From assembly GCA_037442925.1 (NCBI GenBank), contig JBBIPG010000001.1, forward strand, positions 1,368 through 65,367: 64,000 bases of DNA, written 5' to 3'. Under the pieces are notes generated by a model, which searched no databases, was not told the DNA's origin, and saw only the letters and a list, made by a program, of their open reading frames with translations. Shown here piece after piece: positions 38,280-56,144 of this stretch (the first letter of the stretch is position 1; each line of letters starts with the position of its first letter). The DNA comes from Candidatus Fraserbacteria bacterium (lineage in GTDB: Bacteria > Bipolaricaulota > Bipolaricaulia > RBG-16-55-9). The position numbers and the translations under genes are program-made.

Positions 38280-38330
38280 GGCCTTCCACTATGGACGAGA
38301 GCAGTAGAGCTTGTCAACTGAAAAGAGAAG

Positions 38331-38379
38331 GGTGACAGGGGCTCATCTCGTTTGTCATGTGAGATGACTCTGTCACCCT
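38331..38379 (-). terminator. Long hairpin terminator downstream of the 38414..39265 gene
   Basis: GGGTGACAGGGGCTCATCTC-loop-GAGATGA..CTGTCACCC. Followed on the minus strand by TTCTCTTTTC. Confidence 0.5.
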
Positions 38380-38413
38380 CCGTGTCCATCGGGATGGGTC
38401 ACATTAAAGCAGC

Positions 38414-39265
38414 TCATGGCGAAACACGAATGTCCATGTCTTGTTCCACTTGGATCTGGATCCACGCAAGACCGTTGCGCTGGTCATAGCTTACTCCCAG
38501 CACCATCCCGGCATAGGGCGCACGAAGATAGAGCTTCTGCATGGCGTCTGTAAGAGCTGCCAGTCGCTCTTCGAACTGTCGCTCACCGAAGAAGAGAGCG
38601 TTCAACTTGCCCGTGAACGAAGCTCGTTCTAGTTGCAAGTCGTTGATCTGCTTCTGGATCTGCGCTAGAGTTGCAGGATCTTTCACGCAAAGCGGTTCGT
38701 CTTGCGCCACGAGCTGGTAGGGCTGAACCAGAGGCTCGCCTGCACAAGAGAGCTCTTTGAGCACGAGGTGCGAGTTGGGAACAGCTTGATTTCCACTGTC
38801 CTTCCACTCCCAATCGATGCGAGCTGCCTCCACACGCTGAGTGACCGGCCGGCCCAGCTGACGCACGATCCAGTAGGCCTCCCGGACCTCATGCAGGGGA
38901 GTTGCCCCACAAAGCTCGATTCGAAGTGCGGTGGCCATCTGTAGAGTTCGGGCGGCATAGCGAACCTGGAGCATGCCATCCTCCGCATCGTAGTCCAACT
39001 CCTCAATGCCTGGGTTAAAGCGCAGCATCGAAGGGTCCACAGAAGGCGCGATGCGTACTCGAAGCGCGCTGATCCGCGCGCGATCCTGTTCGTTCAACGT
39101 CAAGCGAAAGATCTTACTCGGTTGGATGCAAACTGCATTCACCGCATCCTCACTCCCGCCCACTCGCGAAGGGAAGTTCGCCGTCTGCGAAGCTCCCAAG
39201 ATGAGCAGCACTCCTAAAGGCACCGCTATGACCAAGAGCTTCAACGTTCCAAGCCGAGTCATCAT
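38414..39265 (-). CDS. Secreted hypothetical protein
   Basis: 283 aa, signal peptide, no family recognised. Confidence 0.5.
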   Translation of the reverse strand: MMTRLGTLKLLVIAVPLGVLLILGASQTANFPSRVGGSEDAVNAVCIQPSKIFRLTLNEQDRARISALRVRIAPSVDPSMLRFNPGIEELDYDAEDGMLQVRYAARTLQMATALRIELCGATPLHEVREAYWIVRQLGRPVTQRVEAARIDWEWKDSGNQAVPNSHLVLKELSCAGEPLVQPYQLVAQDEPLCVKDPATLAQIQKQINDLQLERASFTGKLNALFFGERQFEERLAALTDAMQKLYLRAPYAGMVLGVSYDQRNGLAWIQIQVEQDMDIRVSP

Positions 39266-39389
39266 CGTATGTCACCCCTTTCGATGGGTCGATCCATGTA
39301 CATCTACTCTTTTGGCGTTACAGAGTTTCATTTGTTTCATGGCTCGTGTTTCTGTTTCGCTTCCTTGCGGGATGCTATAATGAGTTGCT

Positions 39390-41078
39390 ATGCACGTTGA
39401 GGGGATCACGCTGGCAGCGGTGGTCAACGAACTTCGCCAGAGCATCCAGGGCGGTTTCATCCAACAGATCTATCAACCACTTGCGGATCTTCTCGTTCTC
39501 AAGCTCTACACCAGAGAGAAGCATTCATTACTCATCGCGGCTTCTCAGGACGCGCGCCTGCATCTCACGGAGCAGAAGTACGAGAATCCGTCGGTGCCTT
39601 CGCCGTTCTGCATGTTGCTGCGCAAGCATCTAAAAGGTGGGAGGATTGAGGAGATTCACCAGCCAAACTGGGAACGCATCGTGGATTTTAGTGTCGTCTG
39701 CCACCAGGGTGTCTACGTGCTGCGCGCGGAATTGATGGGATCTCATAGCAACGTGATTCTTCTAAAAGACGACGCCGTCGTGGGAGCGCTCAAAGTCACG
39801 AGCGGCCAACGCAAACTCGTTCCTCATGCCCACTATGCGCCACCATCGCCTCAAGACAAGCTGAATCTGCGTATGGCCACGAAAGAGGAACTATTTCAGG
39901 CTCTCCAGGCTCACGCAGACAAGAGTGTCAAGCAAGGTCTTCTGGGCACCATCGATGGCATTGGACCCCGCAGCGCGAGCGAGATCGTCTTGAGGGCCCG
40001 GCTACAGCCCGAAGAGACTATCGCCTCGCTGAGCAAAGAAGAGTTGGGTGCCCTCTGGGAAGTTATTGATGAATTCTTCTCCCGAATCGTTCGGGGCAAC
40101 CTGGAGCCCTGCGTCTATCTCAAAGCGGGAGAACCCTTTGACTGCACGCCGTTTCCCTTTGTGAGTTATTCCCGGCTCGAAGTGAGAAGATTCGAGAGCA
40201 TGTCTCAGGCGTTGGACGCCTGCCATCGGGAACGCCATCAAGAGCCATTCGAGCGACTCACTCGCGTCCTCGCGCAGCAGCTCAAGCACCGCCTCAACAA
40301 GACAGAGAAAGCTCTCAGCCAACTGATGAAGGATCTGGCAGATGCCGAGAGATTCCAAGAGTACAAAGAGCGTGGAGATCTTCTGATCACTCATCTTCGG
40401 CAGATTAAGAAAGGCCAGCGGCAGATCGAGGTGGAGGATCTTGCGAGGGGAGGCAAGCGGGTCATTTCGCTCGATCCGACCCTTGATCCGGCTGCCAATG
40501 CCCAGCGTTACTATGAACGCTACAAGAAGCTCAAGCGCGGAGTTGAAAAGCTCACGGAGCGACGGCACGAACTGGAAATGGAGATCAGCTATCTTCAGAA
40601 CGTGGGAGTGCAACTGGAGCAGGCGGAGAATCTCGAGGAGTTAAGAGAGCTTCAAGCCGAGCTAGAACTGGAGGGTTCTCTATCTCGATCTAGTAAGAAA
40701 AGATCTCAACCGGTATCCTCAGGTCCTCGGCGCTACCCAATAGATGGTTTCTTGGTGCTGGTCGGACGGAATGGCCGCCAGAACGACGCGCTCATCCGGC
40801 AGGCGAATCGAGAAGAGTACTGGTTGCACGCCAAAGATCGTCCGGGAGCCCATGTCGTGATTATGAGCGATCAGCGCGGTGCTGTGCCTCCAGAACGGGT
40901 CTTGTTGCGCGCAGCTCAGTTGGCTGCGTATTATTCCCGTGGGCGCGGCTCCACGAAGGTGCCTGTCACATACACGCGAGTGAAATACTTGAGGAAACCG
41001 AAGGGGGCAAGACCGGGGCTGGTCACGGTTACTCGCGAAGAAGGCACGCTCATCGTCTCCCCCAAGGAGGAGGAATGA
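39390..41078 (+). CDS. rqcH: Ribosome quality control protein RqcH (NFACT family)
   Basis: N-terminal ...ENPSVPSPFCMLLRKHLKGGRIEEI matches Bacillus RqcH. C-terminal NFACT-R/DUF814 (GRNGRQND...HAKDRPGAHVVI). Confidence 0.85.
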   Translation: MHVEGITLAAVVNELRQSIQGGFIQQIYQPLADLLVLKLYTREKHSLLIAASQDARLHLTEQKYENPSVPSPFCMLLRKHLKGGRIEEIHQPNWERIVDFSVVCHQGVYVLRAELMGSHSNVILLKDDAVVGALKVTSGQRKLVPHAHYAPPSPQDKLNLRMATKEELFQALQAHADKSVKQGLLGTIDGIGPRSASEIVLRARLQPEETIASLSKEELGALWEVIDEFFSRIVRGNLEPCVYLKAGEPFDCTPFPFVSYSRLEVRRFESMSQALDACHRERHQEPFERLTRVLAQQLKHRLNKTEKALSQLMKDLADAERFQEYKERGDLLITHLRQIKKGQRQIEVEDLARGGKRVISLDPTLDPAANAQRYYERYKKLKRGVEKLTERRHELEMEISYLQNVGVQLEQAENLEELRELQAELELEGSLSRSSKKRSQPVSSGPRRYPIDGFLVLVGRNGRQNDALIRQANREEYWLHAKDRPGAHVVIMSDQRGAVPPERVLLRAAQLAAYYSRGRGSTKVPVTYTRVKYLRKPKGARPGLVTVTREEGTLIVSPKEEE

Positions 41079-41746
41079 ACCGCTTCCGCTCGACATTTGC
41101 TTTGGCCAGCGCCACTCAGTATATCGTCTTGGCCGTCATCATCGTCTATGCCATCCAGATCATCCAGCAGCCCAAGGGGGGCTCCGGGTTCTTTGACCTC
41201 TTCGACATTTCACGCATCACTCCATTTGAACTGACCTTTGGGTTGATCACGCCTCCCGAGATCCCCGATGTCTTCTGGCAACTGGTTACGTACATGTTCT
41301 TGCATGGCAGCCTGTGGCACATACTGTTTAACATGTGGGCTCTTTGGTTGTTCGGCCATGCGCTCGAGGCGGTCTGGGGGATGCAGCGGTTTTTGGTCTA
41401 TTACTTCTTTACGGGCATAGGGGCGGGGCTGACTGTGGTGGTGATCGCCCTCTGGACCGGCCAGCCCGGCATGAACATCACGATTGGTGCTTCAGGGGCG
41501 GTCTACGGGTTGCTGCTGGCATTTGGAATGCTCTTCCCCAATCAGGCATTATACTTGTTCTTCATCCCGGTCCCGATCCCAGCCAAGTACGCGGTGCTCC
41601 TCTTGGGCGGGTTCGCCTTTGTGGCCTCGATCACCGGCATCCAGCCTGGCATAAGCAACATCGGGCATCTGGGTGGATTGCTGTTCGGATTCATCTACCT
41701 CAAAGGCCGCCGTTGGTGGGTCAGGCTTCGCGATCTTGAACGCTGA
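41075..41746 (+). CDS. Rhomboid family intramembrane serine protease
   Basis: GASGAVYGLL (GxSG) and downstream His in TM helix. Confidence 0.8.
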   Translation: MNRFRSTFALASATQYIVLAVIIVYAIQIIQQPKGGSGFFDLFDISRITPFELTFGLITPPEIPDVFWQLVTYMFLHGSLWHILFNMWALWLFGHALEAVWGMQRFLVYYFFTGIGAGLTVVVIALWTGQPGMNITIGASGAVYGLLLAFGMLFPNQALYLFFIPVPIPAKYAVLLLGGFAFVASITGIQPGISNIGHLGGLLFGFIYLKGRRWWVRLRDLER

Positions 41747-41788
41747 GCGGGAGGATTTGAGAAGGCAAGAGCCGCCTGATACAATGTC

Positions 41789-42034
41789 TTGAAAGCGAGG
41801 TCGAGCGGAATGCGAACGTTTCTTCTGGTGCTCTTTGTGCTGGATGCGCTGGTGCTGATCGGCTTGATTCTCATGCAGATGAGCCGACACGCCGGCTTGG
41901 GCGGAGCCTTCGGAGGAGGAGGAAGCCACACGGTATTCGGACGCGAAGAGCAGAGCGATCCCAAGCGCACCGCCACAGCTTGGTTGGCAGCTCTCTTTAT
42001 GGTCTTGGGACTGGCTCTCTCTTTGGTGTCGTAA
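41789..42034 (+). CDS. secG: Preprotein translocase subunit SecG
   Basis: 81 aa, two TM helices, Gly-rich loop GLGGAFGGGGS. Confidence 0.8.
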   Translation: MKARSSGMRTFLLVLFVLDALVLIGLILMQMSRHAGLGGAFGGGGSHTVFGREEQSDPKRTATAWLAALFMVLGLALSLVS

Positions 42035-43030
42035 GTGGGGGCATCCATGGCCGCTGATACGCTCATCGAGGTACGAGACCTAAAGACGTACTTTTACACC
42101 GAAGATGGCGTCGTACGCGCAGTAGATGGCGTTTCGTTCTCCCTGGAACGCCAGGGTACTATAGGAGTCGTGGGGGAGTCGGGTTGCGGTAAAAGCCAGA
42201 CGGCGCTTTCCATTATGGGACTTGTGCCCATGCCTCCGGGCAAGATCGTCGGAGGCCAGATCATCTACCACCGCAACGGAACCCCCACGGATCTCACCAA
42301 GCTCGATGCCAAGGGCCGCGAGTATCGCTCGATCCGCGGCAACGAGATCGCCATGATCTTCCAGGAGCCGATGACCTCGCTCAACCCGGTCTACACCATC
42401 GGCAACCAGATCATGGAGGCGATCATGCTCCACCAGAAGAAGACCAAGCGGGACGCTCGAGAACTGGCCATCGCCATGCTCCGCCAAGTGGGGATTCCCC
42501 TGCCGGAGCAGCGCGTGGATGAGTATCCTCACCAACTCTCCGGTGGCATGCGACAGCGTGCCATGATCGCCATGGCGCTTTCTTGCAATCCCAATCTGCT
42601 CATCGCCGATGAGCCCACGACAGCTCTGGATGTGACCATTCAGGCCCAGATTCTCGAGCTCATCAAGACGCTGCAAGATCAGTATCACATGTCGCTCATG
42701 ATGATCACCCACAACTTAGGGGTGATCGCGGAAACGGCCGACGATGTGGTCGTCATGTACATGGGAAAGGTCGTCGAGCACGCTCCTGTAGATGCAGTCT
42801 TCCACAATCCAAAGCACCCCTACACCCAGGGGTTGATGGAGTCCATTCCGGCGCTCACGAAGAAGAAGGAGCGGCTCAAGCCCATCAAAGGGGTGGTGCC
42901 CGATCCCTACAACATACCCAAGGGGTGCCCCTTCCAGACCAGGTGTCCATACGTGATGGAGACCTGCAAGGAGATGCCTCCGTTGGAGGAGGTGGAGCCG
43001 GGTCACAAAGTCGCCTGCTGGCTATATTAG
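42035..43030 (+). CDS. oppD: Oligopeptide/dipeptide ABC transporter ATP-binding protein (OppD/DppD)
   Basis: Walker [18 protein letters not shown]-terminal oligopeptide ABC extension. Confidence 0.88.
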
Positions 43031-43054
43031 TGAGTACTGTGCGTGAAGGAGTGA

Positions 43055-44116
43055 ATGGAAGTGGCGAATGAGGAATTGCTTCTGGAAGTCAAGAAACTGA
43101 AGAAGTACTTTCCTGTGAAGCGTGGGATCTTTCGGCGGACGGTTGCCCATGTCAAGGCGGTTGATGGGATCGATTTCTTCATCAAGAAGGGAGAAACGCT
43201 GGGGTTGGTGGGCGAGTCGGGCTGTGGCAAGACGACGGCAGGTCGCACCATTCTGCGACTCATCGAACCCGATCCAGGCAGCCAGATCCTCTTCCACACG
43301 AATGGCCAGATGATCGATATTGCCAAACTGCGCCCCAGACAGCTCAAGCCCCTGCGCCGCCAGATGCAGATCATCTTCCAAGATCCTTACTCCAGCTTGA
43401 ACCCGCGTATGACCATTGGCGACATTGTGGGTGAACCTCTTGTGGTTCACGGCGTGGCCCGCGGCCGGGAGCGCGAAGCGCGCGTGCGCGAGTTGCTGGA
43501 AGCCGTCGGTCTCAACCCGGCCTACATGAAGCGCTACCCCCATGAGTTCAGTGGCGGTCAGCGGCAGAGAATCGGTATCGCCCGTGCGTTGGCTCTCGAC
43601 CCTCAGCTCATCATCTGTGACGAGCCGGTTTCGGCCTTGGACGTTTCAATTCAAGCCCAAGTGCTCAACTTGTTGGAAGACCTTCAGAAAGAGTTTGGAT
43701 TGACGTATCTGTTCATCGCTCACGACTTAAGCGTGGTGCGCCACATCAGTAGCCGGATCGCCGTGATGTACTTGGGCAAGATCGTGGAGATGGCCGAAAC
43801 GGAAGAGCTGTTCAAGTCACCCAAGCATCCCTATACGGAGGCGTTGCTGTCGGCAGTTCCGGTGCCCGACCCTGCGATCAAGATGGACCGCATCATTCTC
43901 GAAGGGGACGTGCCTAGCCCTGTGAATCCGCCCTCGGGATGCGTCTTCCATCCCCGATGTCCTTACTACGCCAAGAACAAATGGGAGCCCTGCAAGAACG
44001 ATGTGCCTCCTCTTGTGGATGTGACCGGGAATGGCCACTACTCCAGCTGCCACTTCGCCCGGGAGCTCCAGCTTCATGGCGTAGAGGAGATCGTGGAGCG
44101 ACGGTCGCGCTCATAA
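43055..44116 (+). CDS. oppF: Oligopeptide/dipeptide ABC transporter ATP-binding protein (OppF/DppF)
   Basis: [17 protein letters not shown]. Confidence 0.88.
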
Positions 44117-44120
44117 GTCA

Positions 44121-44714
44121 GTGAAGCTGCTGCTCGGGACAAAAAACGACAAGAAATTCCCGGAATTTTTCCAGATTCTCGCGAATCTCCCCGTGGAATG
44201 GCTGACGTATCATGAGTGCCCCTTCCGTGACGTAAGAGAAGACGGTCGCACGTTTAAAGAAAATGCACTCAAAAAGGCTCGCCAGATCAGTCAGGCGACA
44301 GGGCTGGCCGTCTTGGCTGAGGATGCCGGCTTGGAGGTGGAGGCATTAGGAGGCAAGCCAGGTGTGTACTCGGCTCGCTTTGCAGGAGTTGCTGGTCGAA
44401 GGGCGACGGACCAGCAGAACATCGAAAAGCTTCTCAAGTTGCTGAAGGGTGTGGAAGATAGGAGGGCCCACTTTGTTTGCGTGGCTGTACTGCATTTCCC
44501 AGACGGGAAAGAGCTGATTTCTGAAGGAGAACTCAAGGGGCACATCGCTCAGGAGGCCCGAGGAACGCACGGCTTCGGCTACGACCCCGTGTTTATTCCT
44601 GAGGGCTATGAGAAGACGCTGGCAGAGCTGGGACCGTCTGTGAAAGACGAGATCAGTCATCGCAAGAAAGCGCTGGAACGACTCAAAAAAGAGCTTCAAG
44701 CTAAGGTTATTTGA
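44121..44714 (+). CDS. rdgB: dITP/XTP pyrophosphatase (Ham1/RdgB)
   Basis: GTKNDKK..., FGYDPVF motifs. Confidence 0.9.
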   Translation: MKLLLGTKNDKKFPEFFQILANLPVEWLTYHECPFRDVREDGRTFKENALKKARQISQATGLAVLAEDAGLEVEALGGKPGVYSARFAGVAGRRATDQQNIEKLLKLLKGVEDRRAHFVCVAVLHFPDGKELISEGELKGHIAQEARGTHGFGYDPVFIPEGYEKTLAELGPSVKDEISHRKKALERLKKELQAKVI

Positions 44715-44770
44715 CAGCCTCCCGAAAGTAAGCTATTCTTGATCTGGTAATACTATTATGAAACGGTAAG

Positions 44771-45022
44771 GTGATGGCCATGATCGGTAGCAAGCTGACC
44801 TCCAAAGGCCAGACGACGATTCCTAAAGAGATTCGAGACTTTCTCGGCCTGCGAGCTGGAGATCGGGTGGTCTTCCTTCGCCGGGAGGGGGAAGTCATCC
44901 TACAAGCTGTGAAGCAGACGCTTTTGGACCTGCGTGGGAGCATCCAGATTCGTAGACAGCCGGAGGACTTCGATCAGATCCGCCGACAAGTCAAGCGCCG
45001 AATGACCCGCAAGGGCGCATGA
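44771..45022 (+). CDS. vapB: AbrB/MazE-fold antitoxin (VapB-like)
   Basis: KLTSKGQTTIPKEIRD swapped-hairpin motif. Stop immediately followed by the PIN gene's ATG (TGAATG). Confidence 0.7.
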   Translation: MMAMIGSKLTSKGQTTIPKEIRDFLGLRAGDRVVFLRREGEVILQAVKQTLLDLRGSIQIRRQPEDFDQIRRQVKRRMTRKGA

Positions 45023-45451
45023 ATGACTCCGTGCTTTGTCGATACCAACATCTTCTTGCGCTTTCTCACTAGTGATGTCCCTGCTCAGGCCGAGGCGGTT
45101 GCGCAGCTACTGCGGCGAGCAGCAGACGGGAAAGTCTCCCTAAAAACGAGCGCGCTTGTGATCGCAGAGCTTGTCTGGACGTTGGAATCCTATTATGAGC
45201 TGGATCGCGAGGAGATCAAGGCCAAAGTGTTGGCGATCTTGAATACGCCGGGGTTGGAGGTGGAGGATGGCGAGCTCATTGGAGAAACCATTCTGTTCTA
45301 TGCAGAGAAGAATGTGGATTTCATTGATGCGTACCACGCTTATTGGATGAAGAGCCATGGACTCTCTCGGGTGTATACCTTCGATACGAAACACTTTACG
45401 CGGGCTGAGGGGATCATACCTCTGGTGCCGGGAGCCAAGGAGCAGGCGTAA
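45023..45451 (+). CDS. vapC: PIN-domain toxin VapC
   Basis: FVDTNIFLRFL N-terminus with acidic PIN residues. Confidence 0.8.
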   Translation: MTPCFVDTNIFLRFLTSDVPAQAEAVAQLLRRAADGKVSLKTSALVIAELVWTLESYYELDREEIKAKVLAILNTPGLEVEDGELIGETILFYAEKNVDFIDAYHAYWMKSHGLSRVYTFDTKHFTRAEGIIPLVPGAKEQA

Positions 45452-45497
45452 CACAGAGATCTTCAAGCCAAGCTTTCCTAGGACCCCATCTACACTC

Positions 45498-45525
45498 TTG
45501 CCAGATATTAAGAGCGTGTTATCAT
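45498..45525 (+). promoter_or_regulatory. Putative promoter for the protease-WD40 gene
   Basis: TTGCCA - 16 nt - TATCAT. Followed by a 6-bp hairpin in the leader. Confidence 0.35.
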
Positions 45526-45589
45526 ATGGGAGTAGGCCCGGATGTGGGTTTGAAAGAGTTCACATCTAGGCCAGAAAAGGAGGGCGCCC

Positions 45590-47064
45590 ATGCTCAAGCG
45601 TGGTCTCAGGCTTGCAGCGATACTCGGTTTCTTGTCGGTGTTGATTCTATCGGGGAGTTTTCCTGGAGTGGGGGTAATCGCAAGCGCGCAGCAAGATATT
45701 TCAGCGATCGTCGAGCGTGTCAGGCCGGCGGTCGTCGAAATCGTGACGGATAAGGGGCAAGGGAGCGGATTTATCATCACATCGGATGGGGCAGTTCTCA
45801 CTGCTTACCACGTCGTGCGGGGAGCCAGCAGCATCGAAGCTCGGTTGCCGAATGGCTCAAGCTACAGAGCAACTGTAGGAAGTATGATGAGACGTATGAC
45901 CGTGGGGGCAGCGATCTGGCCTTGCTGAGGGTAAGCGCCAGCGGCCTTCCCACAGTGAGCTTAGGCGACTCGGATACCATCAGGATTGGGCACTCCATCA
46001 TCGTCATGGGCTATCCCTTGGGTATGGGTTTTCTTGTTGGCACCGGAAACATTAGTGGCAGTGTGGATTTTGGCGGTGGGCGCACAGTCTTTGTAATTGA
46101 TGCTGCCGTCAACCCAGGCAACAGCGGCGGACCGCTCCTCAATGATGAAGGTGATGTTATTGGAGTCGTCTTCGGCAGGGCCGATGTCCCCGGGATCAGG
46201 GTGGAGGGAATCAACTTCGCTACCCCAATAAACACTGCCAAGCGTGAGTTGAGACTAAACGTACCCACTGTGCACACCCTCACCCTCGGCCACAACAGCA
46301 CAGTCCTGTCAGTAGTGTTCAGCCCCGACGGACGGCTGCTCGCCTCCGGCTCCGTGTTCTGGGACAGTAGCACGTGGAGAGGAGAGATCAAGCTGTGGGA
46401 TGTAGCCACGGGTCAGGAGATCCGCACCATCAGCCCCAGCGGTAGCTGCACTATCGAGTGGGGGATCGCGTTCAGCCCTAACGGACAATTTCTCGCCTCC
46501 GGCTCCGGGGAAGGAGTGGTCTATTTGTGGGAGGTGGCCACGGGCCGGGAGGTCCGCACCTTAACTACTGGCAACACCTTCTCAGTCTGTTGGGTGGCCT
46601 TCAGCCCGGACGGGCGGTTACTCGCCGCCGCCACCGCCACTGACGACATCAAACTGTGGGAGGTGGCCACGGGTCAGGAGATCCGCACTCTCACTGGCCA
46701 CACCTACGGTGTCCATCAAGTAGCCTTCAGTCCTGACGGAAAGTTCCTCGCTTCCGGTGCTGGTGACTATACTATCAAGCTGTGGGAGGTGACCACGGGC
46801 AAAGAGGTGCACACACTCTCCGGTCACACTGGGTCGGTGTACTCCGTAGCCTTCAGCCCAGATGGGAAGCAGCTCGCCTCAGGTTCCTGGGACGAGACAA
46901 TCAAGCTGTGGGCTGTGGCCACAGGACAAGAAGTTTGCACCCTCACAGGGCACACCGACCAGGTCAATTCGGTAGCCTACAGTCCCGATGGGAGGCTCCT
47001 TGCCTCCGCTGGCTATATGGACCATACGATTAAGCTCTGGAACATCACTGCACTGTCAGGGTGA
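45590..47064 (+). pseudogene. Secreted trypsin-like (S1/HtrA-type) serine protease fused to WD40 repeats, interrupted by a -1 frameshift near 45880
   Basis: ORF 45590..45928 carries signal peptide and the catalytic His (LTAYHVV). The next frame (45922..47064) continues with DLALLRV (Asp) and GNSGGPL (Ser), then 6-7 WD repeats. The two frames join at ...RATVG|KYDETYD. Confidence 0.7.
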
Positions 47065-47115
47065 ATGATCGGGATGATTGCGGGCAACAACACCTCAGGC
47101 AATCAGAACGGTATG

Positions 47116-47240
47116 GGCAACCCCTGCAATCACCCCTGGAACCGACCCGACGTGCCTGATGGGCAAGTGTGTCTGCCATAGATGCAAGGAAGCAACTGGC
47201 GGTCAGCAATCCGCTGTCAGCAGAGACGAAAGACTCAAAG
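47116..47240. repeat. Copy A of about 125-bp direct repeat flanking the DUF433/DUF5615 pair
   Basis: About 80% identical to 47938..48062, read by eye. Core: GTGTGTCTGCCATAGATGCAAGGAAGCAACTGGCGGTCAGCAATC. Confidence 0.6.
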
Positions 47241-47280
47241 CTGATGGCTGAAAGCTGACTGCCAATTCGCTACAATCAAC

Positions 47281-47547
47281 ATGGTGATACCCATGAAGAT
47301 CGCAGAACGCATTGAAGTCGACCATAACATCTGCCACGGCAAGCCCCGCATCGCCGGCACCCGCATCATGGTCGAACAGGTGCTGGATCTCCTAGCCGCT
47401 GGTATCCCCATTGAGCAGATCACTTCCGAGGAATACTTCCCGGATCTCACCAAAGAGGACGTACTGGCCTGCGTGGGCTTCGCCAATGCGTTCCTTAAGG
47501 GCGAAGAGTTCCATATCTACGAACCGGAGACCCCAAGCCCAGCGTGA
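47281..47547 (+). CDS. DUF433 protein (putative antitoxin)
   Basis: 88 aa, ...HGKPRIAGTRIMVEQVLDLLAAG typical of DUF433. Confidence 0.65.
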   Translation: MVIPMKIAERIEVDHNICHGKPRIAGTRIMVEQVLDLLAAGIPIEQITSEEYFPDLTKEDVLACVGFANAFLKGEEFHIYEPETPSPA

Positions 47548-47900
47548 AGATTCTGGCTGATCACTGCGTCTATGGCAAGACCGTTCAACTTCTTCGAGCA
47601 CAAGGCCATGAGGCCATCACGCTCCAGGAGTTGGGGCAGGCCAAGGTCGCTGACCATCAAGTGCTGATGCTGGCTCAGTCACTGGATGCCGTGCTGGTCA
47701 CAAACGACAAGGGATTTGGCAATATCCTGACCTATCCCCCGGAGCGCTATGGAGGCATCCTTGTACTGCGGGTGACCGCCACGAGCCAGCAACGAGTTCA
47801 TCAGATTCTATTGGATTTCTTAAAGTCACATGATCGGGAGTCGTTGCGCAAAGCGCTTGTGGTCATTGATGCCCGGACCTATCGGATCAGAAGAAGCTAG
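47544..47900 (+). CDS. DUF5615 (PIN-like) putative toxin
   Basis: 118 aa, MKILADHCV...LVTNDKGFG. 4-nt overlap with DUF433 gene. Confidence 0.6.
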   Translation: MKILADHCVYGKTVQLLRAQGHEAITLQELGQAKVADHQVLMLAQSLDAVLVTNDKGFGNILTYPPERYGGILVLRVTATSQQRVHQILLDFLKSHDRESLRKALVVIDARTYRIRRS

Positions 47901-47937
47901 CTGGCCAACGATTCCCCGTGGCTCGAAGAATCTTATG

Positions 47938-48062
47938 GACAACCTTGGCAATCACCCCGGAACCGGCCCAGCGTGCTCGATGGGTAGGTGTGTTTGCCAT
48001 AGACGCAAGGAAGCAACTAGCGGTCAGCAATCAGCTCTCAGCTAAAGGCAAGAGCTGAAGGC
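47938..48062. repeat. Copy B of about 125-bp direct repeat
   Basis: See copy A. Confidence 0.6.
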
Positions 48063-48156
48063 CACTCCCAACATTCAGGCAGATTAAATCGGGCGGTCTA
48101 GTTGCCTGAGTACCGGCCTACTGTCTAAGATGTAAAAATCGACAAATGGAGCGGTC

Positions 48157-48429
48157 ATGGCCGATGGCGATGTGGACCTTCTGGAGCGAATGCGCCGCAC
48201 ACGCAGCGGCTGGGGCGAGGATGACTTGGACAGACTTTATCGTAGCTTCAGCTTCCGCGAGATCACACGCCCCAGGGCCCCTCACCGTGTCTACGTCCAC
48301 CCTGCTCACCCTGACCTACGAGCTACTGTCGCGCGCAAAAAATCTCTGCCCAAGGGCTATCCGACCACGGCCGTACGCATCATTGATCAACTCTTGGAGA
48401 GACAGAAAGCGAAAGGGGGAAGCCCATGA
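48157..48429 (+). CDS. hicA: HicA-like mRNA interferase toxin
   Basis: 90 aa. SGWGEDDLDRLYRSFSF...HRVYVHPAHPDLRATVARKK fits HicA dsRBD-like pattern. Confidence 0.55.
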   Translation: MADGDVDLLERMRRTRSGWGEDDLDRLYRSFSFREITRPRAPHRVYVHPAHPDLRATVARKKSLPKGYPTTAVRIIDQLLERQKAKGGSP

Positions 48430-48665
48430 AGAAAGACGTAGATTATTATGACCGATTGCCTTGGAGGGTGCAGATCGAACCCGAGCGTCAAGACGACGGG
48501 ACGATCGTTTACATTGCCTCGCATCCGGAGTTTGAGGGCGTGCTGGGCAGTGGAACCACACCCGAAGAGGCGTTGGTCGATTTGCGCAAAGCACGCCGCG
48601 CGATGATCGAGGCATTGCTGTCGGAGGGTTACTCCGTGCCAGAACCAGCAGCCGTAGTGGTTTAG
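48426..48665 (+). CDS. hicB: HicB-like antitoxin (UPF0150)
   Basis: 79 aa. DGTIVYIASHPEFEGVLGSGTTPEEALVDLRKA. 4-nt overlap with hicA. Confidence 0.55.
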   Translation: MKKDVDYYDRLPWRVQIEPERQDDGTIVYIASHPEFEGVLGSGTTPEEALVDLRKARRAMIEALLSEGYSVPEPAAVVV

Positions 48666-48703
48666 CTTGGCTCTTCCTTGCTTGTGCCTGACAGCGTTGT
48701 GGA

Positions 48704-48964
48704 GTGCCAGGGAATGCGGATGAAGAACGACGCAACGAGGGGCTCAGCATCGCAGAGGTCGAACAAGCTTTGCTCAATGGACGCATTCTGGAGGATTATC
48801 CTCAAGATCCTCGCGGACCTTCGTGCCTGGTTTATGGGGATGCCGGAGGGCAGCCCATTCACGTGGTCTGCGGACGTAACCGCTCAGGATGGCTCGTGCT
48901 GATCATTGTGTATGTTCCGACAATGCCGAAATGGAAAAGCCAGACAGAAAGGAGTCAGCCATGA
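48704..48964 (+). CDS. DUF4258 putative toxin
   Basis: About 86 aa. ...ILEDYPQDPRGPSCLVYG...PIHVVCG...LIIVYVPT pattern. Start uncertain. Confidence 0.5.
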   Translation: MPGNADEERRNEGLSIAEVEQALLNGRILEDYPQDPRGPSCLVYGDAGGQPIHVVCGRNRSGWLVLIIVYVPTMPKWKSQTERSQP

Positions 48965-49107
48965 AGCCTTATGATGACTGCATCCATTGCGGCGGCCGGG
49001 TGGACGAACGCCTGGAGTGCATCGACTATCGCTACCACGGACAGCTCTTCATCCTGGGGCCGCGCCTCTCCAAGCTCGGGCTTTACATGCTGAGCGATCT
49101 GTTCTAG
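48961..49107 (+). CDS. YgiT/MqsA-type zinc-finger antitoxin-like protein
   Basis: 48 aa. MKPYDDCIHCGG...ECIDYRY. Overlaps DUF4258 stop (ATGA). Confidence 0.45.
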   Translation: MKPYDDCIHCGGRVDERLECIDYRYHGQLFILGPRLSKLGLYMLSDLF

Positions 49108-49152
49108 AATGTGCAAGGTATCCAAGAAGACAGCTAAGCTCAGGATTGGCGT

Positions 49153-49500
49153 ATGCTTCGCGAAGGAGGCGAGTGGATGATTTCTTTTGACGATTTTCTC
49201 AAGCTGGACATTCGCATGGCAGAGATCGCGGCAGCAGAGCGCGTCCCCGGCACTGACAAACTCCTTAAGTTGACGGTGAATTTGGGAAGCGAAACCCGGC
49301 AACTTGTGGCAGGTATTGCGAAATCTTACGCACCGGAGAGTCTTGTTGGAAAGAAAATACCCATCGTGACCAATCTCGAACCTAAGACCATTCGAGGCAT
49401 CGAAAGCCAAGGGATGATCCTCTGCCCTTCCACGTCCGAGGGAAAGCCGGTCTTGCTCCTGCCCGACCGGGATGTGCCACTGGGAGCCAAAGTGAAGTAA
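49153..49500 (+). CDS. csaA: tRNA-binding protein CsaA (EMAP/MetRS C-terminal-like)
   Basis: 115 aa, LDIRMAEIAAAERVPGTDKLLKLTV. Confidence 0.8.
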   Translation: MLREGGEWMISFDDFLKLDIRMAEIAAAERVPGTDKLLKLTVNLGSETRQLVAGIAKSYAPESLVGKKIPIVTNLEPKTIRGIESQGMILCPSTSEGKPVLLLPDRDVPLGAKVK

Positions 49501-49506
49501 TTGCGT

Positions 49507-51618
49507 TCACGGAGCTTGGCCTGCCTCGATCGATTCGGCAACGAGTTCGGCAATGTCCTTGTCTTGTAGGGGGAGACTCTTGTTCTTGATGCCATCCTCG
49601 AGCATGATCATACAAAAGGGGCAGGCCGTTGCCACGATCTCCGGCTTGACTTCCATCGCTTGCATGAGCCGTCGGTCGTTCACCCGTTTTTCGGGCTCCT
49701 CCTCTACCCACATGAGTCCTCCGCCCGCACCGCAACACATACCCTTCTCACGGGAGCGTTTCATCTCTACTCGCCGGGTGCCTGGAATGGCATCCAACGT
49801 CGCTCGCGGTGCATCATAGACCTTGTTGTAGCGACCCAAGTAGCAAGAATCGTGGTACGTGATCGTCTGTCGTACCTCTTTTGTGAGTCTGACTCTGCCC
49901 TCTTTGACAAGCTGGGCAATGAGCTGTGAATGATGTACAACTTCGTAATGACCGCCGAAATCTGGATATTCGTTCTGGAAGGTGTTGTAGCAATGTGGAC
50001 AGACGGTCAAGATCTTCTTGACGCCGTAGGTGTTGAATCTCTCGATGTTCTGTTGCGCCTGCATCTGGAAGAGATACTCATGACCGATGCGCCGCGCCGG
50101 ATCGCCGGTACAGGTCTCTTCTTCACCCAGAATCGCGAAGGTGATACCCGCGGCGCGCAAGATTTGAACAAGGCTTCGGGCGATCTTGTGGTTCCTCGGC
50201 TCAAAGGCCGTTGCGCATCCCACCCAGAAGAGATACTCCACTTCCGTGGCCGGATTCGCGCCTGTCGGCTGTAGCTGGCTCATGACCGGGACATTGAGCC
50301 CCTTTGCCCACTCCAGTCGCACCTCGGCGGTCATGTTCCAGGGATTGCCTCGCCCATCGAAACCCTTGAAAACATCCGTGAAGTGCGACGGGTATTTGTC
50401 CTTGATCATGACTTCGTTTCGTCGCATGGCCAAAATCTTATCCAGCTGATTGATCTGAATGGGACAGGCAGCCACACAAGCCATGCAGGTCGTGCAAGCC
50501 CAAATCTCTTCCGGTTTCACAGCCAGTGGCACGACGTCTTGCGGCTCCTTGGCTTTGCCAAAGAGCGGGACTTCTTCATAGGCGTGATCCCTCAGTTCGA
50601 GGATGATCTCCTTGGGCGAGAGGACTTTGCCGGAGATGTGTGCGGGACACTCCGCTTCGCAACGCCCACACTCCGTGCAGCTGTAGAGATCGAGGATGTC
50701 CCGCCAACTGAGGTCTTTGATCGTTTGAAGACCCAATACTTCGTTGCGCTCGAACGCACCTTCCACATCCAGCTTCGTCATGCGCCCCTGGGGAGCTGTC
50801 TTGTAGAAGATCACGTTAGGCAAGCTTGTGATGATATGAAAGTGCTTCGAGATAGGAAGATAATTCAAGAAGACGAGGATCAAGAAGAGATGGAACCACC
50901 AAGAGGCAAAATGCAGGGAGCTGAGCGCCGCTTCGTTCAGCCCAACTTGGGTGAGAAGCCATGCAGCCGTACCGCTGGCAAACGCCCAAGCACCTCGTGG
51001 ATTGCCTTCCAACGCAAAGAGCGCTCCATCGAGCAGCAGATCTGTGACCATCAGCATGAAAATCAGCAACAGAATGAAGATGGCTCCTCCGGAGAGCGTA
51101 AGTCGCGCCTTTTTCGCGATCAGCCTCTGATAGAGCCAATAGAGGCACCCCAGCATCACGAGCAGAGAGAAAGCGTCTTTCGCAAAGAAGTAGAGATTGC
51201 CCCATACGTTCACGGGAATATCGAGGCTTGGAGCGAAACCGGAAATGAATAGACTGACCGTACGCACGGCGTAGATGAGAAATCCCCAGAAGATGAAGGC
51301 GTGCATCAAGCCTGCGAATAGATCCTTGAAGAGACCTCGTTGCGCGAAGAAGTAGAGGAATGTGTTGACAAGGCGCTTGCCCCATTCGTGAAAGCGATCC
51401 TCTGGGCCTCCCCGGGCAAGCAGTTGCCATCGCCTCCACATGACGTAGGAGAAGAGTGCAAGGCTCACAAACAGCATCGCTGCCAGCCAAATACGACCGC
51501 TCAATCCAAGAAAGTCGAAATCTGTTGGGTGCATGAGTGGACTCCCCTCTACAACACTCTGACAATAGCCGAAGCGAAAGATCTCTGTCAAATGGAAGCG
51601 GGATAAAGCAGTTGACAA
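49507..51618 (-). CDS. Fe-S oxidoreductase: NarI-like cytochrome-b membrane domain fused to HdrD-like domain (2x4Fe-4S plus two CCG motifs)
   Basis: N-terminal about 6 TM. CTECGRCEAECP and CTTCMACVAACP ferredoxin motifs. CPHC.../CCGAGGG.../CPFC Cys-rich CCG domains. Confidence 0.75.
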   Translation of the reverse strand: MSTALSRFHLTEIFRFGYCQSVVEGSPLMHPTDFDFLGLSGRIWLAAMLFVSLALFSYVMWRRWQLLARGGPEDRFHEWGKRLVNTFLYFFAQRGLFKDLFAGLMHAFIFWGFLIYAVRTVSLFISGFAPSLDIPVNVWGNLYFFAKDAFSLLVMLGCLYWLYQRLIAKKARLTLSGGAIFILLLIFMLMVTDLLLDGALFALEGNPRGAWAFASGTAAWLLTQVGLNEAALSSLHFASWWFHLFLILVFLNYLPISKHFHIITSLPNVIFYKTAPQGRMTKLDVEGAFERNEVLGLQTIKDLSWRDILDLYSCTECGRCEAECPAHISGKVLSPKEIILELRDHAYEEVPLFGKAKEPQDVVPLAVKPEEIWACTTCMACVAACPIQINQLDKILAMRRNEVMIKDKYPSHFTDVFKGFDGRGNPWNMTAEVRLEWAKGLNVPVMSQLQPTGANPATEVEYLFWVGCATAFEPRNHKIARSLVQILRAAGITFAILGEEETCTGDPARRIGHEYLFQMQAQQNIERFNTYGVKKILTVCPHCYNTFQNEYPDFGGHYEVVHHSQLIAQLVKEGRVRLTKEVRQTITYHDSCYLGRYNKVYDAPRATLDAIPGTRRVEMKRSREKGMCCGAGGGLMWVEEEPEKRVNDRRLMQAMEVKPEIVATACPFCMIMLEDGIKNKSLPLQDKDIAELVAESIEAGQAP

Positions 51619-51661
51619 CTCTCACGAGAGTCCGCTATGATCTCTGAGAGGTTAGAGGGAT

Positions 51662-52312
51662 ATGCCTAGAGCAACCGTTGACTCTCATCATATCCGAGTC
51701 CTCTACGATCAGTTGGCTTCGGGCTACGATCGCCGTACTGCACTGAGCGATTTCTTATTCTTGAAGCGTTTTCGCCGACAGCTTCTGGCCTCGGCTCATG
51801 GGCGAGTTCTGGAGATCGGCATCGGAACGGGCCGAAATCTCCCCTATTATCCACGCGATTGTGACATCACGGGCGTGGATATCTCTCCCAAAATGCTTGA
51901 AGCAGCAGCACATCGAGCAGCCCAGATGGGTCTTAAGGTGAAGCTCTTGCAGATGGATGGCCATGAACTCAGCTTCCCCAGTTCTAGTTTCGACACGGTA
52001 GTGAGCAGCTTGTCGCTCTGCACCGTGATCGATCCGGTCAAAGCCCTGGCAGAGATGTCTCGGGTGAGCGTTCCCAATGGACGCATCTTGCTGCTCGAGC
52101 ACGGTCGAAGCCGATACCGCTGGGTCTGCCGCCTTCTGGATTTATTGGCGCCCCACCAGATTGGCAAGTACGGCTGCCATCCGAATCGGAATATCTTGGC
52201 GCTGGTACAAGCCGCAGATCTCGTGGTATTACAGATCGAGCGCCACTTTCTGGGTGGCATCCTGCAAGTGATCCGTGCGCGACCTCCGCGCTCTGGCACG
52301 ATCTCCAAATGA
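51662..52312 (+). CDS. Class I SAM-dependent methyltransferase
   Basis: VLEIGIGTGRNL motif I. Confidence 0.75.
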   Translation: MPRATVDSHHIRVLYDQLASGYDRRTALSDFLFLKRFRRQLLASAHGRVLEIGIGTGRNLPYYPRDCDITGVDISPKMLEAAAHRAAQMGLKVKLLQMDGHELSFPSSSFDTVVSSLSLCTVIDPVKALAEMSRVSVPNGRILLLEHGRSRYRWVCRLLDLLAPHQIGKYGCHPNRNILALVQAADLVVLQIERHFLGGILQVIRARPPRSGTISK

Positions 52313-52339
52313 GACCCCAGTGCGCAGAATGGTCTTGAG

Positions 52340-55063: not shown

Positions 55064-55094
55064 GTACGTTCCTCTCTCCTTAAGGTTCGGATCT

Positions 55095-56144
55095 TCAGGG
55101 AAGCACCCCAGCCTCCACGGTCAATACGGGAACGCCGTCGCGGGTGACGGCCAGACTGATATTCACATTTAGGTCCGGGAAGCTAAGCGAAGTCCCCCAG
55201 CCGAAGAGCACTTCGTTCGACTCTTCTCCATCGCCCAATACCATGCCACCCTCGAAGAAGACCGACGAGAGCAGGCGGAGTCGCACGGGAATCCATCCGA
55301 GCCTCTCTCCCAGAATGTCCCTGAGATCCAACTGGAAGATCTGAGCTGAAAGCACTTCAAAGCCCTGTTCGAGCGAGAACAAGAAGAATCGATGGCCCGC
55401 AAACGAAGCGGGATAGCTGCGAAGCCCCAGATTGAAGCGAAAGCCTGGCAGGTCGGCGGGGTTATCTAACTCTCCCAGGCGAAACTCCAACGTGGTCTCA
55501 TCGACCCACAATCTGGTCGAGCTAAAGAAAGTCTGAAAGGAGCTTTCGAGGTCGGTCAGAGGCTGACCGAACAGAAACTCTCCGCGAGTCTCCAGAGTGA
55601 TGCCGAGCGGCAGTGGCCAGTGAAGGAAACCGCTCAGGTGAAAGTATCGCACATCCGGACCTTCCATCTCGCCTTCCCCTGGCCAGAGGCGCCCCAAGAA
55701 TCCCGTTCCTTGGAGCTGGCTTTGCTGGAGAACTGCGCCAAGAAGTCCCTCTCCTTCACTCCCCAGCAGTCGATTGAGTGCCAGCAGGTCCAGCGACGCA
55801 TGAATACCCTGTTCGCCTTGACGACCGAATACCAAGCTGCTCGGCCAGTCTCCATAGGAGATCCTCAGAGCGTTCTGGTATTGCAGGCCCGTTCGGAAGC
55901 GTCCCATCTGGCTCAACACGCCATAGGCTCCGCCTGCTTCCAGTTCCAACCCCAAGCCTTCCAGAGTTAATGCAAAATCCAGTCCCAGCAGCAGGCCGTC
56001 GCGATGGCTCTCCGCGATCACAGGGCGCAGATGGGGAATCGCACCGATGGGTTGCTGCTCCTGGGACCAACCACTAAACCCGCTCAAAGCGACGAGCCCC
56101 AGAGTGAGCCATGCCCAACTGTATCTCCATCCTCGATCACTCAT
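55095..56144 (-). CDS. Secreted hypothetical protein, possibly outer-membrane beta-barrel
   Basis: 349 aa, signal peptide, alternating hydrophobic pattern. Start overlaps ABC-F stop. Confidence 0.45.
   Translation of the reverse strand: MSDRGWRYSWAWLTLGLVALSGFSGWSQEQQPIGAIPHLRPVIAESHRDGLLLGLDFALTLEGLGLELEAGGAYGVLSQMGRFRTGLQYQNALRISYGDWPSSLVFGRQGEQGIHASLDLLALNRLLGSEGEGLLGAVLQQSQLQGTGFLGRLWPGEGEMEGPDVRYFHLSGFLHWPLPLGITLETRGEFLFGQPLTDLESSFQTFFSSTRLWVDETTLEFRLGELDNPADLPGFRFNLGLRSYPASFAGHRFFLFSLEQGFEVLSAQIFQLDLRDILGERLGWIPVRLRLLSSVFFEGGMVLGDGEESNEVLFGWGTSLSFPDLNVNISLAVTRDGVPVLTVEAGVLP

What the first reader, a model, noticed from the sequence alone, without database searches (positions are those of the whole stretch)
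45590..47064. S1/HtrA-like protease-WD40 fusion split by a -1 frameshift between catalytic His and Asp
The signal peptide and catalytic His (LTAYHVV) are in frame A. The Asp (DLALLRV), the Ser (GNSGGPL) and seven WD repeats are in the -1 frame. The frames join cleanly at ...YRATVG|KYDETYD around nt 45878-45882 (GGAAGT, possibly a lost A from GGAAAG).

This is either a sequencing error in a short A run, a recent pseudogenisation, or a programmed -1 frameshift. The protease-WD40 architecture itself is uncommon and typical of large multicellular-like bacterial lineages.
Basis: seen in the sequence. Interest (0 to 1): 0.5.

Follow-up and report, generated by a model that had tools for sequence, protein, structure and literature searches.

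The report
Frameshift-broken accessory protease-WD40 gene
A secreted HtrA-like protease gene fused to a WD40 propeller has lost one base between its catalytic His and Asp; this is most likely a very recent knock-out of a dispensable gene, because relatives read straight through the site and a same-species genome lacks the gene altogether.

Summary
A single Trypsin_2 (HtrA-like, S1C) protease domain is split between frame A (45590-45928: signal peptide, His74) and the -1 frame (to 47064: Asp109, Ser179, WD40).

The cause is one missing A (GTA GAG AAG to GTAG-GAAG, between 45878 and 45879). It is not in a homopolymer. All four DNA-level relatives and three further database proteins read V-E-K/R-Y in frame at this site.

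There is no slippery heptamer, no stimulatory structure and no conservation of the shift, so programmed frameshifting is not supported. An independent Logan assembly (SRR11582170) reproduces the deletion at 100% identity. About 19 kb of coding DNA compared with a conspecific genome shows no other frameshifting indel, so an assembler artefact is unlikely.

dN/dS is 0.05-0.11 on both sides of the break, so the break is recent. That conspecific genome (98.8% nt identity) lacks the whole 4.4-kb island packed with toxin-antitoxin (TA) genes that carries this gene, so the gene is dispensable.

The WD40 part has six repeats, not seven, and models as an open 6-of-7 propeller. Syntenic relatives carry other C-terminal domains (FGE-sulfatase, beta-helix), each also broken.

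Verdict: an ordinary nascent pseudogene of an already catalogued architecture, in a Candidatus Acetothermia-like MAG. Low interest.

The parts
44698..49129 (.). Variable 4.4-kb island between the Ham1/RdgB gene (44121-44714) and the tRNA_bind gene (49153-49500). It carries the protease-WD40 gene and several toxin-antitoxin pairs.
   Evidence: A conspecific genome, L024 (GCA_037444325.1), is 98.8-98.9% identical across 34116-44697 and 49130-59055. It has only about 92 nt in place of this island. L002 has a shorter version of the island.
44771..45451 (+). MazE/PrlF-type antitoxin (44771-45022) and PIN toxin (45023-45451), inserted between Ham1 and the protease gene.
   Evidence: Pfam: MazE_antitoxin E 5e-10, PIN E 2.5e-14. 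Absent at this position in L001 and L002.
45498..45525 (+). Promoter-like site TTGCCA-16-TG-TATCAT, 65 nt upstream of the start codon.
   Evidence: Consensus scan, 10 of 12 matches. This is a consensus match only. The region 45455-45589 is conserved with L002.
45577..45583 (+). Shine-Dalgarno AAGGAGG, 6 nt before the ATG at 45590.
   Evidence: Read from the sequence.
45590..45878 (+). 5' part of the protease gene in its original frame: signal peptide (45590-45688, ...ASA|QQ) and the catalytic His74 codon 45809-45811.
   Evidence: 85% and 81% nt identity to L001 and L002.
45878..45879 (+). Site of the 1-nt deletion: window GTAG-GAAG, L001 GTGGAGAAG, L002 GTAGAGAGA. The A of the Glu codon GAG is lost.
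   Evidence: DNA alignment and blastn gap list. Relatives read VE[KR]YDET. The identical sequence is in the independent Logan contig L023.
45879..45928 (+). Out-of-frame tail of ORF A (..GSMMRRMTVGAAIWPC) ending at TGA 45926-45928.
45880..46242 (+). 3' part of the protease domain in the -1 frame: Asp109 codon 45913-45915, Ser179 codon 46123-46125, ending ...INFATPINTAK.
   Evidence: Best solved relative is T. maritima HtrA 1L1J, E 5e-25. dN/dS is 0.05-0.06 against L001 and L002.
46243..46266 (+). Linker (RELRLNVP). This is the last stretch with homology to relatives before the tails diverge.
   Evidence: Protein alignment. tblastn with the L004 protein extends to 46266.
46267..47064 (+). WD40 tail with six repeats, followed by stop TGA 47062-47064.
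   Evidence: Pfam WD40 6 stretches, E 4.5e-63. Repeat families D1 and D2. AF2 model pLDDT 92.2, pTM 0.89 superposes on 6 of 7 blades of 7-bladed propellers at 1.3-2.1 A. The seventh repeat of P0127 and P0205 has no counterpart. No homologous DNA in L001-L004.
47075..47221 (+). Conserved 3' element, copy A. Positions 47077-47178 read GNNTSGNQNGMGNPCNHPWNRPDVPDGQVCLP*, a relic of the C-terminal end of the beta-helix tail seen in L002.
   Evidence: blastn to L001, L002, L003 and L004. tblastn 82% identity over 34 aa, E 3.5e-13. Alignment of six copies.
47281..47900 (+). DUF433 (47281-47547) and DUF5615/PIN-like (47544-47900) pair, flanked by the two copies of the element.
   Evidence: Pfam E 7e-21 and 3.6e-22. 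Repeat families D3 and D5.
47927..48042 (+). Conserved 3' element, copy B (85% identical to copy A).

Best explanation
This is a nascent pseudogene. The gene once encoded a Sec-exported HtrA-like (S1C, Trypsin_2) serine protease. Its usual PDZ domain is replaced by a C-terminal WD40 propeller, presumably a substrate- or partner-binding module.

A genuine single-base deletion (the A of Glu codon GAG, between 45878 and 45879) now shifts the frame 23 codons after the catalytic His. Translation from the intact promoter-like site, SD and ATG would therefore end at 45928. The product would be a 112-aa signal-peptide-bearing fragment with no Asp, no Ser and no WD40.

The downstream 1.18 kb is still an open frame only because the mutation is very young. 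The gene lies in a dispensable, TA-rich variable island, so its loss is tolerated.

Shown: the deletion, its absence in relatives, its reproduction in a second assembly, past purifying selection, and absence of the island in a conspecific.

Inferred: that the deletion is biological rather than a read-level error, that no recoding rescues it, and the protein's former function.
For: - One Trypsin_2 domain is split across two frames.
- There is a single uncompensated 1-nt gap against syntenic L001 and L002. L003, L004 and P0001-P0004 and P0006 all read VEK/VER-YDET in frame.
- The deleted base is not in a homopolymer.
- The exact frameshifted 112-aa product is on record from both NCBI and Logan. 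Logan contig SRR11582170_137312 matches window 44271-46411 at 100%.
- No frameshifting indel occurs in about 19 kb of coding DNA against conspecific L024, nor elsewhere against L002 and L001.
- dN/dS is 0.05-0.11 on both sides of the break. The window branch has 25 synonymous and 8 nonsynonymous changes, like L001 (24/7) and L002 (24/7).
- L024 is 98.8% identical in the flanks and lacks the whole island.
- No intact near-identical protease-WD40 protein exists among 5.8 billion proteins; the top hit is only the truncated gene call P0005.
- The WD40 tail is one blade short. The tail domains in L001 and L002 are themselves frameshifted. This suggests weak constraint on this locus's C-terminal part in the clade.
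Against: No reads were available. The Logan assembly may use the same read set as the MAG, so a systematic read error or a minority or majority allele mix cannot be excluded.

Several features are equally what an intact gene carrying one consensus error would look like:
- the catalytic residues are all present;
- the promoter-like site and SD are intact;
- 380 codons stay open downstream of the shift;
- the protease module shows no excess of nonsynonymous change.
Confidence: 0.75

Rival explanations
1. Sequencing or consensus error: the organism's gene is intact (GTA GAG AAG), and the assembly dropped one base.
For: The downstream frame is perfectly open for 1.18 kb. The triad, signal peptide, SD and promoter-like site are intact. 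The protease module shows no relaxation of selection. MAG consensus sequences do occasionally carry indels.
Against: - The base is not in a homopolymer.
- An independent k-mer-based Logan assembly gives the identical 2,141 bp.
- There are zero frameshifting indels in about 19 kb of coding DNA against a 98.8%-identical genome, and none elsewhere against L002 or L001.
- No intact allele is on record.
Confidence: 0.15
2. Programmed -1 ribosomal frameshift or transcriptional slippage restores a full-length protease-WD40 protein at some frequency.
For: The frames overlap over 45754-45925, so a -1 shift anywhere in that stretch would give a continuous product.
Against: - There is no X_XXY_YYZ heptamer in the zero frame within the overlap, and no run longer than 5 nt.
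- The 120 nt downstream fold no better than shuffles: -36.8 kcal/mol, z +0.41.
- There is no Rfam match.
- Every relative encodes the same peptide in a single frame, so the shift is not a conserved feature.
Confidence: 0.02
3. Two functional products: a short secreted N-terminal fragment, and an independently translated C-terminal protein (half a protease plus WD40).
For: Gene callers emitted both pieces: the 112-aa P0240 and the 352-aa P0005 starting at MGYPLG.
Against: - The catalytic triad is divided, so neither piece can be an S1 protease.
- The C-terminal piece has no signal peptide.
- Its candidate starts (TTG 45922, ATG 46006) have no Shine-Dalgarno sequence upstream.
- No relative is organised as two genes.
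Confidence: 0.05

Closest known systems
HtrA/DegP/DegQ/DegS family (MEROPS S1C); nearest solved structure is Thermotoga maritima HtrA, PDB 1L1J
   Same: Trypsin_2 fold with the His-Asp-Ser order, a GNSGGP serine motif and an N-terminal export signal. phmmer E 5e-25 to 1L1J over query residues 24-188 of the signal-peptide-less protease module. NCBIfam HhoA_HhoB_HtrA E 2.8e-36 over the protease part.
   Different: There is no PDZ domain, so every full-length HtrA-type NCBIfam model falls far below its cut-off (125 bits against 450). A WD40 propeller occupies the C-terminus. There is a family-specific 5-residue insert (DRGGS) before the catalytic Asp. The reading frame is broken.
Cyanobacterial trypsin-like peptidase-WD40 proteins (P0127 Sphaerospermopsis sp. 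LEGE 00249, 535 aa; P0205 Dolichospermum sp. UHCC 0352, 548 aa)
   Same: Same domain order (N-terminal Trypsin_2, C-terminal WD40). They are colinear over 90-95% of the rejoined protein at 43% and 38% identity.
   Different: They are intact and have seven WD repeats, against six here. Their protease modules are only distantly related to this one. They are not positional orthologues.
Candidatus Acetothermia protease family with other tails (L004 JANLFV010000005, 516 aa protease + FGE-sulfatase; L001/P0001; L002/P0002 protease + beta-helix-like; L003/P0003/P0004 protease + short repeat tail)
   Same: The protease module is 72-89% identical at the protein level with the same linker (..INFATPINTA[KR]..LGL). 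L001 and L002 have the same position downstream of Ham1. All share the ~50-100-nt element 3' of the gene.
   Different: C-terminal domains are unrelated to WD40. All read through the window's frameshift site in frame. L001 and L002 carry their own frameshifts, but in the tail domain.
Programmed -1 frameshift genes (e.g. dnaX, IS3-family transposases)
   Same: Two overlapping frames in -1 relation jointly encode one protein.
   Different: There is no slippery site, no stimulatory structure and no conservation of the shift.
Prokaryotic seven-bladed WD40 propellers (Thermomonospora curvata WD40 domain, PDB 5YZV)
   Same: The AF2 model of the tail superposes at 2.0-2.1 A with 46-48% identity over about 255 columns.
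   Different: Only six of the seven blades are encoded.

Membership tests
S1C (HtrA-like) serine protease | Trypsin_2/chymotrypsin fold domain above Pfam gathering score | tested here: met
   The rejoined protein scores 108.6 bits against a 27.6 cut-off, covering profile 1-144/144. This holds only after repairing the frame. ORF A alone scores 30.2 bits over profile 1-45, and ORF B 58.4 bits over profile 57-144.
S1C (HtrA-like) serine protease | Catalytic triad His-Asp-Ser in that order with a GNSGGP-type serine motif | tested here: met
   His74 (LTAYHVV), Asp109 (SDLALL) and Ser179 (GNSGGP) align with T. maritima HtrA. They are not in one reading frame.
S1C (HtrA-like) serine protease | One or two C-terminal PDZ domains (canonical HtrA/DegP/DegS) | tested here: not met
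   No PDZ family is among the 25 best Pfam hits shown (of 59) or the NCBIfam hits. The C-terminus is filled by WD40 repeats. HtrA equivalog models score 61-125 bits against cut-offs of 408-800.
S1C (HtrA-like) serine protease | Uninterrupted open reading frame (functional gene) | tested here: not met
   A 1-nt deletion lies at 45878/45879, and ORF A stops at 45926-45928.
Programmed -1 ribosomal frameshift | Slippery heptamer X_XXY_YYZ in the zero frame within the overlap | tested here: not met
   None in 45590-45925.
Programmed -1 ribosomal frameshift | Stimulatory hairpin or pseudoknot a few nt downstream | tested here: not met
   45870-45990 folds at -36.8 kcal/mol against a shuffle mean of -38.2, z +0.41. 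Pseudoknots were not modelled.
Programmed -1 ribosomal frameshift | Frameshift conserved in orthologues | tested here: not met
   L001, L002, L003, L004 and P0001-P0004 and P0006 are all in frame at this site.
Transcriptional slippage recoding | Long A or T homopolymer at the shift site | tested here: not met
   The longest run in 45590-45930 is 5 G. The site reads GTAGGAAG.
Seven-bladed WD40 propeller | Seven WD repeats closing the ring | tested here: not met
   There are six repeats. The model matches 6 of 7 blades of 7-bladed structures with TM 0.83-0.86. Ring closure was not measured directly on coordinates.
Recent pseudogene | Disabling lesion relative to intact close relatives | tested here: met
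Recent pseudogene | Gene dispensable in the species | tested here: met
   Conspecific L024 (98.8% nt identity) lacks the whole island.
Recent pseudogene | Relaxed selection after the lesion | tested here: not met
   The window branch has the same N/S ratio as its sisters (8/25 against 7/24 and 7/24), and omega is 0.05-0.06 downstream of the break. This fits a very young lesion or an error.
Recent pseudogene | Lesion present in the sequencing reads | not testable with these tools
   Only indirect support: an independent Logan assembly of SRR11582170 is identical.

The most novel reading that the evidence does not exclude
The frameshift is incidental. The notable feature is the locus: a conserved secreted protease scaffold whose C-terminal binding domain is exchanged cassette-wise at a fixed linker.

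- Four tail types occur after ..INFATPINTA[KR]..LGL in relatives whose protease modules are 72-89% identical: WD40, FGE-sulfatase, beta-helix and a short repeat tail.
- Displaced tail relics remain downstream.
- A conserved ~50-nt 3' element could serve as the distal recombination or insertion site. In the window it is duplicated around a TA pair.

This would be a polymorphic, Rhs/CdiA-like 'C-terminal displacement' system for a protease rather than a toxin.
Probability: 0.1. Interest if true: 0.55.

Novelty: new member of a known kind. Interest (0 to 1): 0.17.

Why it matters
Mostly for annotation hygiene. The two called products (112 aa and 352 aa) are fragments of one disrupted gene. They should not be counted as a protease or as a stand-alone WD40 protein. 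The case should not be listed as recoding.

It also gives a dated example of gene decay inside a TA-rich variable island of an uncultivated Acetothermia-like lineage. It hints that secreted HtrA-like proteases in this clade swap their C-terminal recognition domains. If that swapping is systematic, it would be of moderate interest for how protease specificity evolves.

Tried and rejected
- Exact look-ups of the 380-aa ORF B and of P0005 found no contig. The 112-aa ORF A did.
- The full-length homology search was swamped by WD40 proteins. It showed that no intact near-identical allele is on record and that the same architecture exists in cyanobacteria.
- The metagenome-contig scan with the protease module returned nothing closer than 36% identity.
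- The genome-contig scan returned only two close loci, both Candidatus Acetothermia.
- An Rfam scan of 44000-49500 at E<=1 found nothing.
- Folding the 3' element gave a weak signal, z -1.8. I did not pursue a covariance model.
- Literature searches for SRR11582170, GCA_037444325 and the related WGS prefixes found no paper. A search for prokaryotic WD40-trypsin architectures gave nothing relevant.
- I looked for a second WD40 gene or protease paralogue in the window as a donor for the tail and found none.
- Single-base gaps elsewhere in the L002 and L001 alignments looked at first like other frameshifts. All are compensated pairs within a few bases in divergent stretches, or are intergenic.

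Full report
**What is there**

ORF A (45590..45928, 112 aa) begins 6 nt after a strong Shine-Dalgarno sequence (AAGGAGG, 45577-45583). It encodes a Sec-type signal peptide (...VIASA|QQD) and the His of an S1 protease (LTAYHVV, codon 45809-45811). It runs into a TGA at 45926.

The -1 frame is open from 45754 to the stop at 47062-47064. It encodes the Asp (SDLALLRV, 45913-45915), the Ser (GNSGGP, 46123-46125) and a WD40 array.

Pfam shows this is one domain cut in two:
- The rejoined protein gives a single Trypsin_2 match over the whole profile (1-144/144, E 5.7e-31).
- ORF A alone matches profile positions 1-45.
- ORF B alone matches positions 57-144.

**The lesion**

Two contigs from other assemblies carry the positional orthologue directly downstream of the same Ham1/RdgB gene and ABC-transporter genes:
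- L001 is ENA ERZ21828391 contig-100_942.
- L002 is Logan ERR15087765.

The window is collinear with L002 at 88-92% nt identity over 33556-57247. Aligned at the DNA level, the window lacks exactly one base:
- window: ACTGTAG-GAAGTATGAT
- L001: AACGTGGAGAAGTATGAT
- L002: ACTGTAGAGAGATACGAT

The ancestral reading is Val-Glu-Lys/Arg-Tyr (GTA GAG AAG), and the A of GAG is gone. The base is not part of a homopolymer; the longest run in the region is 5 G, located elsewhere.

Two Candidatus Acetothermia MAG loci, L003 and L004, have protease modules 79-81% identical at the protein level. They and the database proteins P0001-P0004 and P0006 all read VEK/VER-YDET in one frame.

**Programmed recoding?**

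A -1 switch would have to occur within 45754-45925. The evidence is negative:
- That stretch has no X_XXY_YYZ heptamer in the zero frame and no long homopolymer.
- The 120 nt downstream of the site fold no better than shuffled sequence (z +0.41).
- Rfam finds nothing in 44000-49500.
- The shift is absent from every relative.

I regard programmed frameshifting and transcriptional slippage as refuted for practical purposes.

**Error or mutation?**

Reads were not available, but three results bear on this question.
- The exact frameshifted 112-aa product is on record from both NCBI and Logan. The Logan contig from run SRR11582170 (L023, 2,141 bp) is 100% identical to window 44271-46411, including the deletion. 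It ends inside the WD repeats, as a short-k-mer assembly of accurate reads would. So the deletion is not an artefact of one assembler or polishing step.
- L024 (GCA_037444325.1, JBBIMR010000004.1) is 98.8-98.9% identical over 20.5 kb of flanks. Against it there are only three indels: one in-frame 6-mer and two intergenic single bases. That is no frameshifting indel in about 19 kb of coding DNA.
- Against L002 and L001, every other single-base gap is one of a compensated pair in a divergent stretch or is intergenic.

A random consensus indel falling in this gene is therefore unlikely, though not excluded. I give that rival 0.15.

**Age of the lesion**

Pairwise dN/dS of the protease module is 0.05-0.11 for all window-L001-L002 comparisons, both upstream (codons 30-97) and downstream (98-221) of the break. 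Codon changes unique to the window branch are 25 synonymous to 8 nonsynonymous. That matches L001 (24/7) and L002 (24/7).

The catalytic residues, signal peptide, SD and a promoter-like site (45498-45525) are intact. The 380 codons after the shift contain no stop. The gene was under purifying selection for essentially all of its branch, so the break is very recent, or artefactual.

**Dispensability and context**

In L024, which belongs to the same species by nucleotide identity, Ham1 is followed after about 92 nt by the tRNA_bind gene. The whole 4.4-kb segment 44698-49129 is missing.

In the window that segment contains:
- a MazE/PIN pair (44771-45451);
- the protease-WD40 gene;
- a DUF433/DUF5615 pair (47281-47900);
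- two further small gene pairs (48157-48665 and 48704-49107). These had no Pfam hit or were not scanned (48157-48665 gave no hit; 48704-49107 was not scanned). By eye they look like HicAB-like and DUF4258/zinc-finger antitoxin-like modules.

The gene is thus an accessory gene in a TA-rich variable island. Loss is evidently tolerated there.

**The WD40 tail**

There are six repeats, not seven:
- Pfam finds six stretches.
- The FSPDG unit occurs six times at a 126-153-nt spacing.
- In an alignment with the same-order cyanobacterial proteins P0127 and P0205, their seventh repeat has no counterpart. The window protein ends ...IKLWNITALSG*.

An AF2 model of the tail is confident (pLDDT 92.2, pTM 0.89). 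It superposes on about 252-258 columns of seven-bladed propellers (WDR61, T. curvata 5YZV, WRAP-T designs) at 1.3-2.1 A. I read this as seven-fold geometry with one blade missing. I did not measure ring closure on the coordinates.

Homology to L001 and L002 ends at 46242, and to L004 at 46266, in the linker. No WD40-like DNA exists in L001-L004 or elsewhere in the window.

Twelve nucleotides after the WD40 stop, 47077-47178 reads GNNTSGNQNGMGNPCNHPWNRPDVPDGQVCLP*. This is 82% identical to the last 34 residues of the beta-helix-like tail of L002. So the WD40 segment replaced most of an earlier tail and left its 3' end behind.

**Relatives' tails**

| Locus | Tail | State |
|---|---|---|
| L004 | FGE-sulfatase | Intact 516-aa protein |
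| L001 | FGE-sulfatase, plus a 60-codon beta-helix relic downstream | Frameshifted by an extra G at about 3194 (GACGGAGGGCGGAG against GACGGA-GGCGGAG) |
| L002 | Beta-helix-like | Called gene stops at 10996, but the repeats continue in another frame to 11372 |

For L002, a hand-joined tail sequence gives one sub-threshold Beta_helix match across the junction (22.2 bits against a 25.9 cut-off). I call this second break probable, not proven.

All three syntenic copies are therefore damaged, each at a different place. Only the window's lesion hits the protease domain. This fits weak constraint on the C-terminal part of the locus in this clade. The protease module itself was conserved until recently.

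**Comparison with known families**

- The protease module is HtrA-like. The best solved match is T. maritima HtrA 1L1J (E 5e-25). NCBIfam HtrA-type models match only over the protease part and fall far below their full-length cut-offs, because there is no PDZ domain.
- Trypsin_2 + WD40 in the same order is already present in public annotation (P0127 Sphaerospermopsis, P0205 Dolichospermum). The reverse order also occurs (P0121, P0122, P0145, P0152, P0209).
- The nearest named genomes are Candidatus Acetothermia MAGs. The window's own record name was not recovered.

**Verdict**

This is an ordinary, young frameshift lesion in a dispensable accessory gene of a catalogued architecture. Confidence is 0.75 for a real mutation, 0.15 for a consensus error and at most 0.05 for anything functional.

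The only mildly unusual aspect is the apparent exchange of C-terminal domains on a conserved protease scaffold, together with a conserved 3' element. I record this as an unproven lead (probability 0.1).

Noticed in passing
window 47134-47180 and 47955-48001; L001 ~3860-3906; L002 ~11315-11362; L004 8440-8482; L003 6804-6850: A ~50-nt core (CCCCTGGAACCGGCC-N4-GTGC-N2-GATGGGCAGGTGTG-N2-TGCC) is conserved 3' of the protease gene in every relative, even where the surrounding DNA is unrelated. In the window it occurs exactly twice, flanking the DUF433/DUF5615 pair. It has no Rfam hit and only a weak fold signal (z -1.8). It could be a coding relic of a beta-helix tail or a functional site (recombination or insertion site, or 3' UTR).
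   Followed up: partly
L001 3190-3200 (ENA ERZ21828391 contig-100_942): The syntenic protease + FGE-sulfatase gene is itself frameshifted by an extra G (GACGGAGGGCGGAG against L004 GACGGA-GGCGGAG). The called 383-aa product, P0001, is therefore truncated. The FGE domain continues in the next frame to about 3640.
   Followed up: yes
L002 10970-11372 (Logan ERR15087765): The called 331-aa protease + beta-helix-like gene stops at 10996. Beta-helix-like repeats continue in another frame, possibly through two shifts, to 11372. Support is a sub-threshold Pfam match only.
   Followed up: partly
window 44698-49129 vs L024 10578-10669: A conspecific genome (GCA_037444325.1, 98.8% nt identity) lacks the whole 4.4-kb island. 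Its 92-nt filler retains a 30-nt match to window 47247-47276, the promoter-like CTGAAA-17-TACAAT just upstream of the DUF433 gene.
   Followed up: partly
window 48157-48665 and 48704-49107: Two more overlapping small gene pairs sit in the island. 48157-48665 gave no Pfam hit at E<=1e-3; 48704-49107 was not scanned. By eye they resemble a HicA/HicB-like pair and a DUF4258-like toxin with a YgiT/MqsA-type zinc-finger antitoxin. That would make four TA-like pairs in 4.4 kb.
   Followed up: partly
window 35822-37121; L002 14608-16085: There are other presence/absence differences between close relatives. An ArsB/CitMHS-type transporter gene is present in the window and L024 but absent in L002. A LemA + M48 peptidase pair is present in L002 but absent in the window and L024.
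   Followed up: no
window 45898-45912: The protease family has a 5-residue insert (DRGGS; DNGGS/N or TSGGS in relatives) immediately before the catalytic Asp. It is absent from T. maritima HtrA and other solved HtrA proteins.
   Followed up: no
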